Shown here piece after piece: positions 10,710 to 64,000 of a stretch of DNA of 64,000 bases. Each line of letters starts with the position of its first letter. Position 1 is the first letter of the stretch. The DNA is from an uncultured Acidimicrobiia bacterium (lineage in GTDB: Bacteria; Actinomycetota; Acidimicrobiia; Spongiisociales; JAENVV01): contig CAWIFX010000043.1 of the NCBI GenBank assembly GCA_963835515.1, forward strand, positions 118,261-182,260. The letters are read 5' to 3'. The translations under genes and the position numbers were made by a program. The notes under the pieces were generated by a model, which made no database searches, was not told the origin of the DNA, and worked only from the letters and a program-made list of their open reading frames with translations.

Positions 10710-11614
10710 TCAGGATTCTCGCCCGAATCGGTCAACCCGGGTATCAAGGTCGACTCCCACCGATCGAGCAGCGGCTTCGATTTCGGCTGCGGGAAAGACC
10801 GATGGCTTCGGCCAGGTCGGGAGAGTGGCGACGCGTTCGGCGAGGTTGGCGACCGTCCACTGGTCCGGGTCGGTTGTGGCCAGCTCATCCCAGGTGATCG
10901 GGGTGCTGACCGAAGCTTTCGGTCGAGGCCGGATTGAGAACGGAGATACCACCGACGCTCCCGGGTGGTTGCGCATCCAGTCGACAAACACCCTACCTTT
11001 CCGGTTCTTTTTGAGGAACTCCGTTGTGGCCAGGTCAGGGTTGGCGGCAACGACGAGTCCGGCGACGGACTGGGCGGCAGTTGCTACATCCTGCCACGGC
11101 ACGTCAGGCACGATCGGCGCCCAGACGTGATAGCCCTTCGATCCGGTGGCCACCGGGATGCGATTCGACGCCGAACGACGTCAGCACCTCCCTGGACCGC
11201 CTCGGTTGCCGACCGGGCCTGGCCCACGTCGCCGGCTTCCGGGTCGAGGTCCATGACGAAGTAATCCGGATGATCGAGGTCGGGGGCCCGGCTCGTCCAG
11301 ATGTGGAAGGAGACTGTGCCCTGGTTGGCGAGGTAGGGGACATCGCCTGGTTCGGTAATCACCGGGAAGGTGGTTATTCCTCCGTCGGTCTTCGGCACTT
11401 CGTAGCGTTCGATGCTCGCAGGAAAGTGGTCGGCCGCGTTCTTCTGCATGAAGCCTTTGGCGCCAATGCCCCGCGGATAGCGCTCCAGGGTCAACGGTCG
11501 CGCGACGAGGAATGGAAAGATCAGGTCGGCCATGGTCTCGTAGTAGCCGACCATCTCGCCCTTGGTCAGGCCGATCTCAGGGAACATGATGCGGTCGGCG
11601 CTGCTGACTTCCAT
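10710..11614 (-). CDS. Stand-alone LigD polymerase/primase domain (NHEJ PolDom), apparently frameshifted near 11155-11225
   Basis: N-terminal frame reads …FPEIGLTKGEMVGYYETMADLIFPFLVARPLTLERYPRGIGAKGFMQKNAADHFP…FVMDLDP… (the LigD-Pol signature). The second frame reads …GSKGYHVWAPI…VFVDWMRNHPGASVVSPFSIRPRPKASVSTPITWDEL…, the PolDom C-terminus. Confidence 0.55.
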
Positions 11615-11735
11615 GTGGTGAGCCTATTAGGTGATTGAGTCCAATGGGTCTTCTGCCTCTGGTCGAAGGCTCCTTGGTCGGGGACCGTGGCACTCGGACC
11701 TAGGAGACCATGACACTGTCCCTCGAGGGAGATAG

Positions 11736-59461: not shown

Positions 59462-60496
59462 TCAGGGAGTGGTCGTTGGAGTCGTGTCGGTCGGGATCGT
59501 GGAGTCGGTTGTCGTGCCGTCGCCCGGAGCGGTCGAGTCAGTCGTGGTGCCATCGGCTGGGGGAGTATCCAACCCGCAGTCGGTAATCGCCGCCTCGAGG
59601 CTTTCCCCACCAAACGCGACCCGTTCGTAGAGCACTACCGATCGGACTTCTTCATCGGACAATGACTCTCCCCAGGCCTGCATGCCTCCGGCGACGGGTG
59701 TGTTGTTGTCGCCGTAGGTGTTCCCGAACTCGGCTTGCCATCCCGCCGATCCGAGAGCGACCCACGTCACGTGATCTGAGCAAGAAGAGAACGTTGCGAG
59801 CACGGCCCCACCGGATAAGGCCGGGCCCGACACACCTTGACCGTTGGCGCCGTGACAGGCCGTACAGCTCGAATAGACCCCGCTACCGATGGCAATGAAA
59901 TCAGCTTGGCCGGCTCCGCCGCCGCCCACTCCGGAGTAGGCGGAGAGGTCGCAGTTGACGAGTTCATTGTTGAAGTCAACGGCTAATTGTCCCGCTTCTC
60001 CACAGTCGGGTCCTGCCGAGTTGATCGTCATATACCCAACGGCGAAGATCGGAAGGATCGTGAAGACCGCCACCATCCACGACGGAATAACCGACTTGGT
60101 TCGCTCCTTGATGCCGGAAGCTCGGACCGTGGTGACCTGGTCCCACTCGTACGACTCTTCGATAGTGACGGTGTCGGGAACCGGTGTGGCGGCGACGGCC
60201 CGGACCGGGGAAGGCTCAGACGCAGTGGGAGTCGGTGCAGGCACCGCGGGTGTCGGCGCCGAAGTCTCGTCCGGGTCTGGTGCAGAGGCTGGTGCGTCAG
60301 CTGGGCTGGCGGCCGGTGCCTCGGCTTCTACGGCGGGTGCGGGTGCGGCGGCGGCAGGTGCGGATCCGCCGCCCGCCCAGGCAGCGAGCACTTCCTCGAC
60401 AGTCGATCCCGTGGCCTGAGCTCGCGCCTTGGCGGAACGCATGACGAGATCCTCAGGTCCCCCGATATTGGCGGCAGCTGCCGATAGGTCACTCAT
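59462..60496 (-). CDS. Membrane-anchored mono-haem c-type cytochrome with conserved cytoplasmic N-terminal module and Thr/Pro-rich C-terminal tail
   Basis: CxxCH (CTACHG). Single TM. The N-terminal ~45 aa are homologous to the N-terminus of the next gene. Confidence 0.7.
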   Translation of the reverse strand: MSDLSAAAANIGGPEDLVMRSAKARAQATGSTVEEVLAAWAGGGSAPAAAAPAPAVEAEAPAASPADAPASAPDPDETSAPTPAVPAPTPTASEPSPVRAVAATPVPDTVTIEESYEWDQVTTVRASGIKERTKSVIPSWMVAVFTILPIFAVGYMTINSAGPDCGEAGQLAVDFNNELVNCDLSAYSGVGGGGAGQADFIAIGSGVYSSCTACHGANGQGVSGPALSGGAVLATFSSCSDHVTWVALGSAGWQAEFGNTYGDNNTPVAGGMQAWGESLSDEEVRSVVLYERVAFGGESLEAAITDCGLDTPPADGTTTDSTAPGDGTTTDSTIPTDTTPTTTP

Positions 60497-61290
60497 TTGG
60501 AGTCCTCCAGGAATTGAACCAACGCGGCGAGATCTGCATCCGAAAGGTAGGCGTAACTCGGCATCATCGAGTCGGGGTTGAGGCTCTTCGGGTCAACGAG
60601 AACAGTTCGGAGGATGGCGAGGTCTTCGTACCGGCTGCCGATATGGGTGAGGTCGGGTCCGATGCGAACAAATCCCAGGGTGGGTGGGCCGACGGCGGGA
60701 CTGGTTCCGGGTTCTGTGACCGGGCCCAGGCCGATATCGGTCACGACGGTTCTTACCTGCTGGGTGTGGCAGTACATGCAGCCCTGCTCCAGGTATACGT
60801 CCCGGCCGGCCAGGCCATCGGCGGACAGGATCGGCGTGGTGCCAGGGACTTGGTCGGCTGCGACATTTCGGGCATCGAGGCCGGGCAGGGCAACGGCAAA
60901 GAAGGCGCTCATCACGAACAAGACCACCAACGCAGCCGAAACCATGATCGGACTGTCGACCCGACCGACCAACAACGGTGCGGCGTCTCGATCGACTTTG
61001 GCCGCAACCATGACGGGAGCGGCGACGGCGGGTGCCTTCGGTGCCGGAAGGGCAGGAGCTTCGGACGGGGCTGGCCCGGCATTGTCCGGGGCGGTTGGCT
61101 CAACCGGTGCTTCAGCGACGGGCTCTGGCGACGGTGCCGGTGCTGCGGTGGCGACGGATCCGCCGCCTGTCCAGGCTCCGAGCACCGCATCGACGCTCGT
61201 ACCGCTGGCAGTCGCCCGAGCTTTGGCAGCTCGCACGATTAGTTCCTCAGGAACCCCCGTAGCGGCGGCGGCAGCAGCAGCGTCGCTCAT
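60493..61290 (-). CDS. CcoO-like mono-haem cytochrome c (cbb3 oxidase subunit II homologue) with ~100-aa N-terminal extension
   Basis: …GRDVYLEQGCMYCHTQQVR…GPDLTHIGSRY…MMPSYAYL… aligns with CcoO. The N-terminal module MSDAAAAAAATGVPEELIVRAAKARATASGTSVDAVLGAWTGGGS is shared with 59462..60496. Confidence 0.7.
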   Translation of the reverse strand: MSDAAAAAAATGVPEELIVRAAKARATASGTSVDAVLGAWTGGGSVATAAPAPSPEPVAEAPVEPTAPDNAGPAPSEAPALPAPKAPAVAAPVMVAAKVDRDAAPLLVGRVDSPIMVSAALVVLFVMSAFFAVALPGLDARNVAADQVPGTTPILSADGLAGRDVYLEQGCMYCHTQQVRTVVTDIGLGPVTEPGTSPAVGPPTLGFVRIGPDLTHIGSRYEDLAILRTVLVDPKSLNPDSMMPSYAYLSDADLAALVQFLEDSK

Positions 61291-62728
61291 GGGTTCACCG
61301 ACGCTTCGGCAAAGACGATCGTTTCGCGACTCGCCGTCTCACCGGAGGTGTACGTCCGCCACAGGTTGTAGAGATACACGAGGGCGGCTGCTTCGATGAT
61401 GAGCACGCCCAGCAACCCGAGTGAGTAGAGACCACCGACCGCCTCTGCTGTGGCGGAGAACCCTTCCCCGGCAATGGCCGACGTGCCGGCGTAGGCAGCC
61501 GACAACCAGGTGTAGCCAGATTGCAGTCCGGCAGCCCACAATGCCCCGGCGCCGAAAACTGCGCCGATCAGGGCGAGGCGTAGGTGGGTGCGACCGAGCG
61601 ACACGGAAAAGATTTGGCGGCCGAACGTGCGAGGAACGGCGTGGTACCCGAAAGCGCAGGCAAACAGCGTGCCGACCGCCCAGACGATCGCCAGATGGGT
61701 TCCGGTCGAGAACGTACGTCAACCCGATCACCGCAGAGACACTGCGAAAGCCCTGGATGCCGGCGATAAGCGCTACTGACGTGGCGGCGACGCTGCCGAC
61801 GATGGCGAACCGTATGGCCGGGTCGGTGCGGAACTGGTCCCACTTGCCCTGCATCGTCCCCGTGAGGTTCGCCAACACGGCTATGGCGGGGATGATCGTC
61901 CCGAACGCAAATACCGCACCGATGCTCTCTGCCCAGTCGCCCATCGGGCCAAACACCTGGCTGGCGAGACCCGCCCACAGACTCGTCACGACGAGCGACC
62001 AAAACCCGACCATGGCTAGCGACCGGCTGTAGAGGGGATTACCCGTGGCTTTCGGAATGATGTAATAGGCCGCCCCGATGCCAACGCCAACTGCCCACTG
62101 CGAGACGACCGTCGAGGTGTAGAACTGGTTTTGGGCGAGACCGCCAACTACCGCTTGGCCTGGGAAGTTACCGACGAGAGTGCCTCCGATGAGCCAGATC
62201 AGTCCGGCCAGGACGTAATACAGGCTGACGTAGGTCGACGTCTCGGTGCGATTGCCGATGGTGCGTACGGTTACGGCCAGCGGCACCAGATAGGTGAGCA
62301 GCAAGATCGCGTCGGCGATGACGTGGAAGTCGGCCAGCGGGCGACCATCGGTGTAACCCAGTCCAATCGCAACGACGGCCACGAGCGTGACGACGGCAGT
62401 GGCGATGGTGGCCGAGGACGGCCAGGGACTCGTTCCACAGCCGGGCACCGGTTAGACGGGGCAGGAGAAAGTAGATGATGGCAAGGTTCGAGAAGGTCAG
62501 CCATCCGTACAACGCCGACATGTTGGCCATCGGCTGGAGGCGACCGTACGAGAAGATGGCCGCCCCGGAGAGAAATGACGGGTAGGCAAGCTTAAGGCTG
62601 GCGAGGACCTGCAGGCCGATCGCCAGCAAGAGGAAGAGGCCCGCCAGCAAAAGCGCCACCCGATTAGCGGAGTCAGCTCCCCGGACAATGCCGGTTCGTG
62701 ATCGCTTATCTTCTGCGGTTATGGCCAA
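61287..62728 (-). CDS. cbb3-type haem-copper oxidase subunit I (CcoN) homologue lacking the canonical His metal ligands; two apparent frameshifts (~62400 and ~61650)
   Basis: Three minus-strand frames concatenate to a ~480-aa 12-TM protein. Strong block similarity to CcoN (…GRLQPMANMSALYGW…, …AYYIIPKATGNPLYSRSLAMVGFWSLVVTSLWAG…, …KWDQFRTDP…), but His at the haem-b, CuB and haem-b3 positions is replaced (PLHTN→PMANM, YGHNA→YTSTV, WAGPHH→WAGLAS). Confidence 0.45.
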
Positions 62729-62998
62729 ACCGGCGCTCCTTCAGCTATCTGCGACTGGGTGGGCGGTCGCAGCTTACTCGACTGTCGGCCCGCGTTCGAT
62801 TTCCTTGGATGGCATTCTGCCTGCCGGATACGGTCAGAGTCAAAGTGGCTGCAAACGTTATCGCATCGCCCCTGCATGCCTTAGGGTGAATTCAGAAACG
62901 GGTGTTGGATCTGCTAGAAATGCCATTGCAGCGATGCAGCTCGTGGCCGTTCGCCGTCTCGAGCAATCGGGACCCGAAGAGGAACAGAATCAGAGCCT

Positions 62999-63601
62999 AT
63001 GAATTGGGTATACGACCAAACGAAACGGAACCGGATCGGCACTGCTGCCATGGTGTTCGGGCTGTTCACGGTGGTCGTGGGTCTCGTGATAGCGGTTGCG
63101 TTCGGCAACGAGAAGATCGTAACGCCTGACTTCCTAAGAGATAGCTTCCTCAATATGCCCCGCTGGCTACCGGTCACATTCGGCCAGATCACTGCTGTGG
63201 CAGGATCCCAGTTCGTCATCCTGGGTGCCTTCCTCGTGTGGGTCACTGGACGACCGATGACCTGGACCCGGGCAGGCTACGCCACGTTTCTAACCTGGTA
63301 TCAGTTGATTCTGTACTACGGGATCATTCCCTCGGAGTGGTTGAACCTGACCCAGGGCCCACTCGGATGGACCTCACAAAAGATCTTCTTCACCGTCCCG
63401 CCGTGGCTGGTGCTCAACAATGAGGTCGAGATCTCATTCGCCGTCGTGAAAGACGCCATTTCCGGCGGATACCACGCGGTCGTTTTGGGCTTGGGCATCC
63501 TGCTGGCCTACAAGATTCAAGGGTTTGGGCTCGGTGCGCCCCAGCCGAAGCCGGAGATTGCCTCGCCGTATGGTCGCCCCCTCTCGAAGGCGACCGATTA
63601 G
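62999..63601 (+). CDS. Hypothetical membrane protein
   Basis: Four TM helices. No family recognised. Confidence 0.45.
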   Translation: MNWVYDQTKRNRIGTAAMVFGLFTVVVGLVIAVAFGNEKIVTPDFLRDSFLNMPRWLPVTFGQITAVAGSQFVILGAFLVWVTGRPMTWTRAGYATFLTWYQLILYYGIIPSEWLNLTQGPLGWTSQKIFFTVPPWLVLNNEVEISFAVVKDAISGGYHAVVLGLGILLAYKIQGFGLGAPQPKPEIASPYGRPLSKATD

Positions 63602-64000
63602 ATGGCTACTGCTCGTGACGTGTGGGTCGAAGTACCCCCAATCCGCGATGACTACCAGCTCGCCGTGGTTGACGGCGATTACTTGCTTGGCCAGGTAAAG
63701 CCCAAGCAGTTCCTGCACATCGACCAGTCAGAGTGCATCCTTTGTGAAGGCTGTGTCGATATCTGTCCGTGGAAGTGCATCCACTATCTCTCGCTCGACG
63801 CGATCGACGAAGGCAGCAACGTGGCCCATCCGCGAGAGAGCGAAGGCGCCAAGGGTTTCTTTCTCGTTGACGAGAACGAGTGCACCCGCTGTGCGCTGTG
63901 CGTTGATCGGTGCCCGACCGGGGTTATTACGCTTGGCAAGTTCGAAGGGTCACTGTCAGCAGAGGTGGCGACCGCCGGTCTCGCACCGTGGGACATTGAT
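63601..64000 (+). CDS. 2x[4Fe-4S] ferredoxin-domain protein, 3'-truncated at window edge
   Basis: ATG at 63601 overlaps the upstream stop. Two CxxCxxCxxxCP motifs (CILCEGCVDICP, CTRCALCVDRCP). The frame is open to the window end. Confidence 0.6.

What the first reader, a model, noticed from the sequence alone, without database searches (positions are those of the whole stretch)
59462..62728. ccoN-like haem-copper oxidase gene lacking all canonical His ligands, with two cytochrome c genes sharing a novel cytoplasmic N-terminal module
Block-wise the 12-TM product is clearly a C-family (cbb3) subunit I homologue, but residues corresponding to the haem-b, CuB and haem-b3 histidines are replaced (PLHTN→PMANM, YGHNA→YTSTV, WAGPHH→WAGLAS). 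The reading frame also needs two frameshifts. Either this is a decaying oxidase operon or a neofunctionalised non-catalytic membrane scaffold. The downstream CcoO-like cytochrome and a second mono-haem cytochrome both start with a conserved ~45-aa module (MSD…PE(E/D)L(I/V)(V/M)R(A/S)AKARA…G(T/S)(S/T)V(D/E)…VL(G/A)AW(T/A)GGGS) followed by an Ala/Pro-rich linker and a TM helix. I cannot place this N-terminal extension in any family I know.
Basis: partly seen in the sequence, partly recalled or inferred. Interest (0 to 1): 0.55.

Follow-up and report, generated by a model that had tools for sequence, protein, structure and literature searches.

The report
Haem-less cbb3-like respiratory scaffold operon
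This three-gene operon encodes a look-alike of the cbb3 oxygen-reducing enzyme whose main subunit has lost every haem- and copper-binding residue yet is kept under strong selection next to a complex-III-type enzyme across a whole bacterial class, so it is a repurposed module that databases mislabel as an oxidase, and its two frameshifts here are probably assembly errors.

Summary
On the minus strand, 62728-61287 encodes a CcoN (cbb3 subunit I) homologue. All six His ligands, the cross-linked Tyr and the Ca2+ Glu are replaced. Two single-base insertions (~62414, 61718) break the frame.

Removing them restores a 479-aa ORF without restoring any ligand. Relatives at 43-92% identity carry intact genes with the same substitutions. 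dN/dS is 0.06, with no excess change on the window's branch. The family is therefore functional. The frameshifts are most likely long-read assembly errors, or at most a very recent lesion.

In about 35 Acidimicrobiia genomes ccoN*-ccoO*-cyt c lies next to, usually divergent from, a b6f-type Rieske/cytochrome b operon. Both cytochromes keep CxxCH. Verrucomicrobia have a similarly His-poor CcoN-like trio directly after the alternative complex III genes.

The N-terminal module is a real, uncatalogued three-helix domain. It also occurs in 1-7 copies on the b6f subunit IV and on a membrane protein beside a caa3 oxidase operon.

Best reading: a catalytically dead cbb3 derivative that anchors two c-cytochromes as a relay or docking module for complex III. 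This function is inferred, not shown. I found no published description.

The parts
61287..62728 (-). ccoN* : cbb3 subunit-I homologue lacking all haem b, haem b3 and CuB ligands. TTG start at 62728, stop at 61287. Reads as 479 aa once two inserted bases are removed.
   Evidence: An AlphaFold model of the 89%-identical orthologue P0001 (pLDDT 84.8) matches 3mk7_A with TM 0.87/0.90.
62414..62417 (-). First 1-nt insertion (an extra C within GTCCTCGG). It shifts the frame after about codon 105.
   Evidence: Alignments to L001 and L002, which lack the base.
61718..61718 (-). Second 1-nt insertion (an extra C in TTGACGTAC). It shifts the frame about 6 codons before the H345/H347-equivalent positions.
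60493..61290 (-). ccoO* : mono-haem CcoO/FixO-like cytochrome c (265 aa). Layout: cytoplasmic module, Ala/Pro linker, one TM helix, haem domain. CMYCH at 60780-60766; MPSY at 60564-60553. Its start overlaps the ccoN* stop by 4 nt.
   Evidence: Pfam FixO E 4.9e-18; CxxCH conserved in orthologues.
61156..61290 (-). N-terminal cytoplasmic three-helix module of CcoO* (aa 1-45).
   Evidence: Module profile hits. AlphaFold pLDDT 89.9 with helices 3-11, 15-29 and 33-40. No Pfam hit and no PDB fold match.
59462..60496 (-). CcoP-like mono-haem cytochrome c (344 aa). Layout: module, Ala/Pro linker, TM helix, haem domain (CTACH at 59866-59852; GGMQAW at 59689-59672), Thr/Pro-rich tail. Its start overlaps the ccoO* stop by 4 nt.
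   Evidence: Pfam Cytochrom_C E 4.4e-6; weak FixP_N hit at E 0.003.
60362..60496 (-). N-terminal cytoplasmic three-helix module of the CcoP-like cytochrome (aa 1-45).
62814..62843 (-). Sigma-70-like promoter match (TTGACT-18-CAGAAT) in the 270-bp divergent intergenic region upstream of ccoN*.
   Evidence: This is a consensus match only and is weak evidence.
62999..63601 (+). First gene of the divergent b6f-type operon: a 200-aa membrane protein with no Pfam family, conserved at this position in all related loci.
63602..64000 (+). Second gene of the divergent operon: a 2x[4Fe-4S] ferredoxin-like protein, cut off by the window end. In relatives it is followed by cytochrome b6 (with the haem-ci Cys), subunit IV (carrying 1-3 modules), Rieske protein, cytochrome c and a small membrane protein.

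Best explanation
The three genes encode a cbb3-oxidase-derived membrane complex that no longer reduces oxygen.

Shown: the 12-helix CcoN* keeps the CcoN fold but has lost all six His ligands, the cross-linked Tyr and the Ca2+ Glu. No compensating His, Met or Cys is conserved. Its two single-pass partners, CcoO* and a CcoP-like protein, keep covalent haem-c motifs. The trio is conserved under strong purifying selection across Acidimicrobiia. It always lies beside a b6f-type Rieske/cytochrome b operon. A similarly His-poor trio sits directly after the alternative complex III genes in Verrucomicrobia.

Inferred: CcoN* acts as an inert membrane scaffold holding two membrane-anchored c-type cytochromes. 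These would serve as the docking or relay module of the quinol:cytochrome c oxidoreductase. They would pass electrons from its high-potential chain to a genuine terminal oxidase (caa3 in relatives), probably inside a supercomplex.

The shared cytoplasmic three-helix modules sit on Ala/Pro tethers. They occur on subunit IV, CcoO*, the CcoP-like cytochrome and a membrane protein next to the caa3 operon. I infer that they mediate co-assembly or bind a common cytoplasmic partner.

The two frameshifts in this window are most likely indel errors of a long-read metagenome assembly (about 65%). Otherwise they are a very recent, strain-specific inactivation.
For: Homology and fold.

Ligand loss: seen in the window, in all 35 database relatives, and in every Acidimicrobiia locus whose sequence covers the positions. 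Canonical controls P0037, L037 and L038 keep all ligands. No alignment column has 90% or more His, Met or Cys.

Selection: orthologues are intact. dN/dS is 0.06 (window vs L002) and 0.075 (window vs L001). Neighbouring genes give 0.075-0.11.

Haem c: CxxCH is kept in both cytochromes in every locus with an intact copy.

Complex formation: ccoN*-ccoO* are fused into one ORF in several lineages (P0034; L027, L029, L030, L031, L033, L036, L044). This indicates they form one complex.

Gene context: the pairing with the b6f-type operon is conserved in about 30 loci. The ActBCDEF linkage is seen in the Verrucomicrobia loci with enough upstream sequence (L039, L040, L042, L043, L045); L046 and L047 begin within ActF.

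Module: it occurs on subunit IV in 1-7 copies, on the cytochromes, and on a polytopic membrane protein adjacent to a caa3 operon.

Precedent: canonical cbb3 forms supercomplexes with bc1 in solved structures, which are among the top fold matches (8smr, 6xkw).

Frameshifts as artefact: all other coding indels over 13.5 kb against L002 are multiples of three. The window's branch shows no excess substitutions. Another gene in the window, LigD Prim-Pol, is also split between frames. Related MAG loci with Flye-style contig names show many fragmented genes.
Against: No direct evidence exists for expression, haem content, interaction with the b6f-type complex, or electron transfer. The relay function rests on gene context and on what the proteins retain.

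The b6f-type operon already encodes its own cytochrome c. The need for two more is therefore unexplained.

The ligand positions are replaced by small residues (Ala, Ser, Thr). An unconventional cofactor or an internal cavity cannot be excluded from sequence alone.

Two indels fall in one 1.4-kb gene and none in about 12 kb of neighbouring coding sequence. That is somewhat unexpected for random errors. A genuine recent inactivation in this strain therefore stays possible.
Confidence: 0.55

Rival explanations
1. Genuine pseudogene in this strain. The two insertions are real, so ccoN* was recently inactivated here while ccoO* and the cytochrome c gene remain intact.
For: Two non-compensating +1 insertions lie in one gene. 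Neither sits in a long homopolymer. No other frameshift appears in the 13.5 kb that aligns to L002. The 369-aa broken ORF is what the public record of this contig carries (P0008).
Against: The corrected frame has no stop codons and no other lesions. dN/dS is 0.06, and the window's branch has fewer unique amino-acid changes (8) than its sister (12). At least one other frameshifted gene is present in the window. Fragmented genes are frequent in sister long-read MAGs.
Confidence: 0.25
2. The whole family is a decaying relic of a cbb3 oxidase operon with no function.
For: All catalytic ligands are lost.
Against: The ORFs are intact with conserved length in more than 35 species-level lineages, down to about 30% identity. 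Purifying selection is strong. Synteny and 4-nt gene overlaps are conserved. Gene fusions with ccoO* exist. About 75 alignment columns are at least 90% conserved.
Confidence: 0.02
3. CcoN* is still redox- or ion-active in an unconventional way. It might bind haem, a metal or a quinone through non-His residues. Alternatively it might work as a proton/ion channel or an assembly factor coupled to the complex-III-type enzyme, rather than as an inert scaffold.
For: The ligand positions are replaced by small residues that could leave pockets. Invariant charged residues (D19, R91, E100, D139, R160/E162, R328, R370, E468) suggest conserved functional surfaces. Retention of all 12 helices at TM 0.87-0.90 to CcoN is more than a simple anchor would seem to need.
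Against: No His, Met or Cys column is conserved. Many of the invariant charged residues lie in predicted loops between helices. This fits protein-protein contacts better than a buried cofactor site. No data bear on transport.
Confidence: 0.15

Closest known systems
cbb3-type (C-family) cytochrome c oxidase CcoNOP, e.g. Pseudomonas stutzeri (PDB 3MK7/5DJQ)
   Same: The gene order N-O-P-like is the same. The 12-TM subunit I fold matches (Foldseek TM 0.87/0.90; HMMER E 1e-31). The CcoO-like subunit has a TM anchor, CxxCH and an MPxY Met.
   Different: All six His ligands, Tyr251 and Glu122 are replaced. The protein scores 154 bits against the 583-bit cut-off of the ccoN equivalog model. CcoO* is truncated, matching only profile positions 19-145 of 219. 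The third subunit has one haem, not two. Both cytochromes carry an extra cytoplasmic module.
bc1-cbb3 respiratory supercomplexes (P. aeruginosa 8SMR; Rhodobacter capsulatus CIII2CIV 6XKW)
   Same: A cbb3-type module is associated with a Rieske/cytochrome b complex, and membrane-anchored c-cytochromes bridge the two. These entries are among the best fold matches. Here the association is genomic, as a conserved divergent operon pair.
   Different: In those supercomplexes CcoN is the catalytic oxygen reductase. Here it cannot be. Physical association has not been shown for this system.
Actinobacterial bcc-aa3 supercomplex, in which the QcrC di-haem cytochrome c replaces soluble cytochrome c (PDB 6ADQ, 7QHO; listed; the mechanism is from established knowledge)
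   Same: A Gram-positive-type lineage in which membrane-bound c-cytochromes relay electrons from complex III to an A-family oxidase. This is the working analogy for the proposed function.
   Different: The proteins differ: QcrC is fused into the bc complex, and no HCO-derived scaffold is involved. The complex III here is b6f-type, with split cytochrome b and a haem-ci Cys.
Alternative complex III (ActABCDEF) gene clusters followed by oxidase genes
   Same: In Verrucomicrobia/Opitutae loci, ActBCDEF is followed directly by a CcoN-like, a CcoO-like and a cytochrome c gene.
   Different: The CcoN-like proteins there keep at most one of the six His. They are therefore not functional cbb3 oxidases either. 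They share only about 25% identity with the Acidimicrobiia family and lack the N-terminal module.
cNOR (NorB/NorC), the other HCO branch with a c-type cytochrome partner
   Same: A 12-TM HCO fold with a mono-haem c subunit. Fold matches 4xyd_A and 3o0r_B have TM about 0.8.
   Different: NorB keeps all His ligands, with FeB in place of CuB. The similarity is much weaker than to CcoN.

Membership tests
cbb3-type cytochrome c oxidase subunit I (CcoN) | Sequence and fold homology to the 12-TM HCO subunit I of the C family | tested here: met
   Pfam COX1 E 1.8e-35. PDB CcoN chains match at E 4e-35 to 3e-26. A model of orthologue P0001 gives Foldseek TM 0.87/0.90 to 3mk7_A, and all top hits are cbb3.
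cbb3-type cytochrome c oxidase subunit I (CcoN) | Six invariant His ligands: haem b (H60, H347), haem b3 (H345), CuB (H207, H257, H258); P. stutzeri numbering | tested here: not met
   They are replaced by A, L, T, S, A and S in the window. The same positions are non-His in all 35 relatives and in all Acidimicrobiia loci, apart from an occasional His at the 258 position. Controls keep them.
cbb3-type cytochrome c oxidase subunit I (CcoN) | Cross-linked active-site Tyr251 and Ca2+ ligand Glu122 | tested here: not met
   Y251 is replaced by Ser (or by N, Q, G, A or V in relatives). E122 aligns to Pro.
cbb3-type cytochrome c oxidase subunit I (CcoN) | Score above the curated equivalog threshold (TIGR00780) | tested here: not met
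   154 bits against a cut-off of 583.
cbb3-type cytochrome c oxidase subunit I (CcoN) | Oxygen-reductase activity; presence of ccoQ and the ccoGHIS maturation genes | not tested
   Activity cannot be tested with these tools. I did not search the window for ccoGHIS.
CcoO / FixO mono-haem subunit | N-terminal TM anchor, a CxxCH haem-c site and a distal Met in the FixO fold | tested here: met
   Pfam FixO scores 65.9 bits against a cut-off of 29.6. CMYCH and MPSY are present. However, the NCBIfam ccoO equivalog scores 66 bits against a cut-off of 200, and only the first about 60% of the profile is matched.
CcoP / FixP di-haem subunit | The FixP_N TM region plus two cytochrome c domains | tested here: not met
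   There is a single CxxCH. FixP_N matches only weakly (E 0.003, 17.6 bits against a cut-off of 24.9). TIGR00782 scores 21.8 bits against a cut-off of 180.
Pseudogene (decaying gene) | Disrupted reading frame | tested here: met
   Two 1-nt insertions in this assembly. Whether they exist in the organism is not testable here, because no reads are available.
Pseudogene (decaying gene) | Relaxed selection or accumulated lesions relative to intact orthologues | tested here: not met
   dN/dS is 0.06. There are 8 unique amino-acid changes against 12 in the sister lineage. The corrected frame has no stop codon.
Known protein domain families (for the N-terminal module) | A significant match to any Pfam model or to a solved fold | tested here: not met
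   No Pfam hit at E<=10 for the single modules. The best Foldseek PDB E-value is 1.0, to designed helical repeats. A profile search finds 444 cluster representatives. All those classified are Acidimicrobiia-type respiratory membrane proteins or fragments of them.

The most novel reading that the evidence does not exclude
A cofactor-free haem-copper-oxidase subunit I, with its two c-cytochromes, is an obligatory subunit of a previously unrecognised type of complex III supercomplex. It would have arisen at least twice, with a b6f-type complex in Acidimicrobiia and with ACIII in Verrucomicrobia. In Acidimicrobiia, a lineage-specific cytoplasmic three-helix module on flexible Ala/Pro tethers would tie the b6f-type complex, the dead cbb3 and the caa3 oxidase into one respirasome, or link them to a common cytoplasmic partner such as the operon-encoded ferredoxin.
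Probability: 0.3. Interest if true: 0.8.

Novelty: new variant of a known kind. Interest (0 to 1): 0.62.

Why it matters
(1) Annotation. These genes are named 'cbb3-type cytochrome c oxidase subunit I' by annotation pipelines (names). Metagenomic studies read such calls as evidence of high-affinity, microaerobic respiration; PMC8357290 lists cbb3 oxidases for many MAGs, though I did not check that those are this family. For Acidimicrobiia, and for the ACIII-linked genes of Verrucomicrobia, that inference would be wrong.

(2) Bioenergetics. This is a clear case of a respiratory 'pseudo-enzyme'. An entire catalytic core has been emptied, while the shell and its cytochrome partners are retained under selection. 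It is linked to two unrelated kinds of quinol:cytochrome c oxidoreductase. This offers a testable handle on how complex III hands electrons to oxidases in bacteria that lack soluble cytochrome c.

(3) New domain. The three-helix module is an uncatalogued domain family. It marks several respiratory membrane proteins of one class and gives a starting point for finding their common partner.

Tried and rejected
- Mis-assigned His positions. Rejected. HMMER-to-PDB alignments and two independent MAFFT alignments with canonical controls agree.
- Indel correction restores the ligands. Rejected. The lone His in 'GTHL' aligns between the two ligand positions and is Gln in the closest relatives.
- Programmed frameshifting. 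Rejected, because the closest relatives have no shift at either site.
- Module as a known fold or domain (HeH/SAP-like, E3-binding-like). These were considered from memory. Pfam and Foldseek gave no support.
- A 35-aa alignment was too short for the search for homologous proteins. The 51-column version returned mostly short fragments, so architectures had to come from the representative-library search.
- A 16-sequence family alignment was too diverse for the search for related loci. An 8-sequence subset worked.
- Exact look-ups of the window's own proteins found no contig. The source record and its sequencing technology therefore remain unidentified.
- Seven literature searches found no description of His-less CcoN homologues. 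Kao & Hunte 2014 (PMC4122944) only note a split cytochrome b in Ilumatobacter.
- The GC3 frame plot was only weakly informative for finding other frameshifts. An ORF-overlap screen plus Pfam found one, in LigD.
Full report
**What is in the window.**
On the minus strand, three tightly coupled genes occupy 62728-59462. The first reads in three successive frames. The joined product is a full-length homologue of cbb3 oxidase subunit I. It hits Pfam COX1 at E 1.8e-35. It hits NCBIfam ccoN at 154 bits, far below the 583-bit equivalog cut-off. Solved CcoN chains 9g6b_A and 3mk7_A match at E 4e-35 and 1e-31 across residues 30-473.

The second gene (61290-60493, 265 aa) is CcoO/FixO-like, with CMYCH and MPSY. 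The third (60496-59462, 344 aa) is a mono-haem cytochrome c, with CTACH, GGMQAW and a weak FixP_N match. Each start overlaps the preceding stop by 4 nt, so the three genes form an operon.

**Ligand loss is real.**
The residue-by-residue HMMER alignment to P. stutzeri CcoN agrees with the MAFFT alignments that include a canonical CcoN-CcoO fusion, P0037, as a control. The replacements are H60->A, H207->S, Y251->S, H257->A, H258->S, H345->T and H347->L. The Ca2+ ligand E122 aligns to Pro.

**The frameshifts.**
I aligned the window to L001 (85% nt identity) and L002 (92% nt identity). The window carries exactly two extra bases: a C at 62414-62417 and a C at 61718. Removing them gives an uninterrupted 479-aa ORF. 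This does not bring back any His.

Over the 13.5 kb that aligns to L002, every other coding indel is a multiple of three, and the remaining 1-nt indels are intergenic. The broken 369-aa ORF is what the public record of this contig holds (P0008).

Three results argue against real decay:
- dN/dS is 0.06 against L002 and 0.075 against L001. Neighbouring genes give 0.075-0.11.
- The window's branch has 8 unique amino-acid changes against 12 in L002.
- The corrected frame contains no stop codon.

Three results point to assembly error:
- Another gene in the window, LigD Prim-Pol (11623-10713), is also split between two frames.
- L002 itself has a frame break in its subunit IV gene.
- Several sister MAG contigs with Flye-style names show genes in two to four pieces.

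I therefore rate assembly error at about 65% and a very recent, real inactivation at about 25-35%. Only the reads can settle this.

**A conserved family, not a relic.**
The protein search returned 38 relatives. About 35 of them, at 29-89% identity, are intact proteins of 455-500 aa. Those with names are annotated as 'cbb3-type cytochrome c oxidase subunit I [Acidimicrobiia bacterium]'. All lack the seven catalytic residues.

A scan of GTDB species representatives found 43 loci. Every Acidimicrobiia or Actinomycetota locus whose sequence covers these positions shows the same pattern. Two gammaproteobacterial loci (L037, L038) keep all the His. One contig labelled Gammaproteobacteria (L031) has the Acidimicrobiia gene set.

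Across 35 His-less members, about 75 alignment columns are at least 90% conserved. None of those columns is His, Met or Cys. An AlphaFold model of P0001, which is 89% identical to the corrected window protein, has pLDDT 84.8. It superposes on 3mk7_A with TM 0.87/0.90, and all the best hits are cbb3 oxidases. The shell is kept and the cofactor sites are gone.

**The partners keep their haems.**
CxxCH is present in the CcoO-like and CcoP-like genes wherever an intact copy was recovered. In several lineages ccoN* and ccoO* are fused into one ORF (P0034; L027, L029, L030, L031, L033, L036, L044). This is genetic evidence that they form one complex.

**Context.**
The gene upstream of ccoN* and divergent from it (62999-63601) encodes a 200-aa membrane protein. 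It is followed by a 2x[4Fe-4S] ferredoxin-like gene that the window end cuts off (63602-64000).

In relatives this operon continues with five more genes:
- cytochrome b6, with the CLGG Cys that binds haem ci in b6f complexes and the b6-type C-terminus;
- subunit IV;
- a Rieske protein;
- a cytochrome c;
- a small membrane protein.

This pairing is present in essentially every Acidimicrobiia locus with enough flanking sequence. It is usually head-to-head and sometimes 4-5 kb apart.

The more distant His-poor CcoN-like proteins of Verrucomicrobia/Opitutae keep at most one of the six His. They sit directly after ActBCDEF, the alternative complex III genes, and are followed by a CcoO-like gene and a cytochrome c gene. 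This holds in every locus with enough upstream sequence. So in two phyla, emptied CcoN proteins are tied to two unrelated kinds of quinol:cytochrome c oxidoreductase.

**The N-terminal module.**
The roughly 45-aa segment (consensus GvPExLvxRSAEARAxAxGxSVeeVLAAWaGG) is shared by both cytochromes in every locus. A variant (IPExLLRRSAEAKAKAxGxxVEqVLAEMxG) occurs in 1-3 copies at the N-terminus of subunit IV in the fetched loci, and in up to 7 copies in database representatives. The copies are separated by Ala/Pro-rich linkers.

The module has no Pfam match. AlphaFold predicts a confident three-helix mini-domain with pLDDT 89.9. Foldseek finds nothing meaningful in the PDB; the best E-value is 1.0. 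A profile search of 1.84 billion cluster representatives finds 444 proteins.

Of the 61 representatives among the best 142 that matched one of my local profiles, the architectures are subunit IV, the CcoP-like cytochrome (1-5 copies) and CcoO-like; one is a run-on ORF joining the end of ccoN* to the start of ccoO*. Among the other 81, which are mostly short fragments or module-only pieces, I found a fourth type: a polytopic membrane protein with no known domains. One example of it has a C-terminal region with a weak sulfocyanin-like (SoxE) match, below Pfam's cut-off.

That fourth protein lies immediately beside a caa3 oxidase operon (COX2-cytochrome c, COX1, COX3, COX4, CtaG) in L049. It lies a few kb from a partial caa3 cluster (COX3, COX4, CtaG) on a JGI contig.

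By topology, the module precedes a signal-anchor helix of an extracytoplasmic cytochrome, or sits at the n-side N-terminus of subunit IV. It is therefore cytoplasmic.

**Mechanism.**
Shown:
- CcoN* cannot bind its haems or copper in the canonical way, and has no conserved substitute ligands.
- Its cytochrome partners are maintained.
- The set is under purifying selection.
- It is genomically coupled to complex-III-type enzymes.
- A genuine A-family oxidase exists in a module-bearing relative.

Inferred: CcoN* is an inert scaffold that positions two membrane-anchored c-cytochromes. These would act as a docking or relay unit between the b6f-type complex (or ACIII) and the real terminal oxidase. 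The cytoplasmic modules would act as assembly tethers or as binding sites for a shared partner.

Canonical cbb3 already docks onto bc1 in solved supercomplexes (8smr, 6xkw). This provides a plausible evolutionary route: the interaction was kept and the chemistry was lost.

Weak points:
- The b6f-type operon has its own cytochrome c.
- Small replacement residues could leave pockets for something unconventional.
- No expression or biochemical data exist.

**Comparison and novelty.**
This works like a membrane-bound cytochrome c relay, as QcrC does in the actinobacterial bcc-aa3 supercomplex. By descent it is a C-family HCO. It fails the defining tests for a cbb3 oxidase: the ligands, the Tyr, the Ca2+ site and the curated score.

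Seven full-text searches found no description of such proteins. I classify it as a new variant of a known kind, accompanied by an uncatalogued small domain. The interest is moderate to high. It matters to specialists in bioenergetics, and for correcting 'cbb3' calls in metagenome-based metabolic inference.

Noticed in passing
window 10713-11623 (- strand): A LigD primase-polymerase domain is split between two overlapping ORFs in different frames. Pfam profile positions 1-125 fall in 11623-11087 and positions 137-249 in 11180-10713. This is a third frameshift in the window, consistent with assembly indel errors.
   Followed up: partly
window 62999-64000 (+); L002 322-5006, L003 3809-9854, L004 4121-9587: The divergent operon encodes an unusual b6f-type complex. 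It has split cytochrome b with the haem-ci Cys (CLGG). It is preceded by a conserved 200-aa membrane protein with no Pfam family and a 149-aa 2x[4Fe-4S] ferredoxin-like protein. A cytoplasmic Fe-S subunit encoded with a haem-ci-containing complex could mean electron input at the n-side.
   Followed up: partly
L039, L040, L042, L043, L045, L046, L047 (Verrucomicrobia/Opitutae); P0038: The alternative complex III genes ActBCDEF are followed directly by a CcoN-like gene that keeps at most one of the six His ligands, then a CcoO-like gene and a cytochrome c gene. This is a second, distant lineage of emptied CcoN linked to a quinol:cytochrome c oxidoreductase.
   Followed up: partly
L049 8001-9206 (protein P0212); also P0218, P0227, P0252: A polytopic membrane protein of about 400 aa with no Pfam domain carries the same N-terminal module. 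It lies next to a caa3 oxidase operon. One relative, P0227, ends in a region with a weak sulfocyanin-like (SoxE) match that is below Pfam's cut-off.
   Followed up: partly
window 59462-59560 (- strand; C-terminus of the 344-aa cytochrome c): A Thr/Pro/Asp-rich repetitive tail (PPADGTTTDSTAPGDGTTTDSTIPTDTTPTTTP). Its length varies between the window and L002 by 3n indels. It could be a cell-wall-spanning or glycosylated linker.
   Followed up: no
L002 2375-3298 versus the called gene 1924-2826: The subunit IV gene of the closest long-contig relative is itself broken by a frame change within the GC-rich Ala/Pro linker region. Many short database 'proteins' containing the module (for example P0062, P0207, P0213) run into out-of-frame Arg/Pro-rich sequence. 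Frameshift errors in these linkers appear common in public MAGs.
   Followed up: partly
L031 (contig labelled 'uncultured Gammaproteobacteria bacterium'): This contig carries the complete Acidimicrobiia-type cluster: the b6f-type operon with modules plus a fused ccoN*-ccoO*. It is probably mis-binned.
   Followed up: no
L048 (Firmicutes bacterium ZCTH02-B6): Another CcoN-like ORF without any of the His ligands. No CcoO-like neighbour was detected with my profiles.
   Followed up: no
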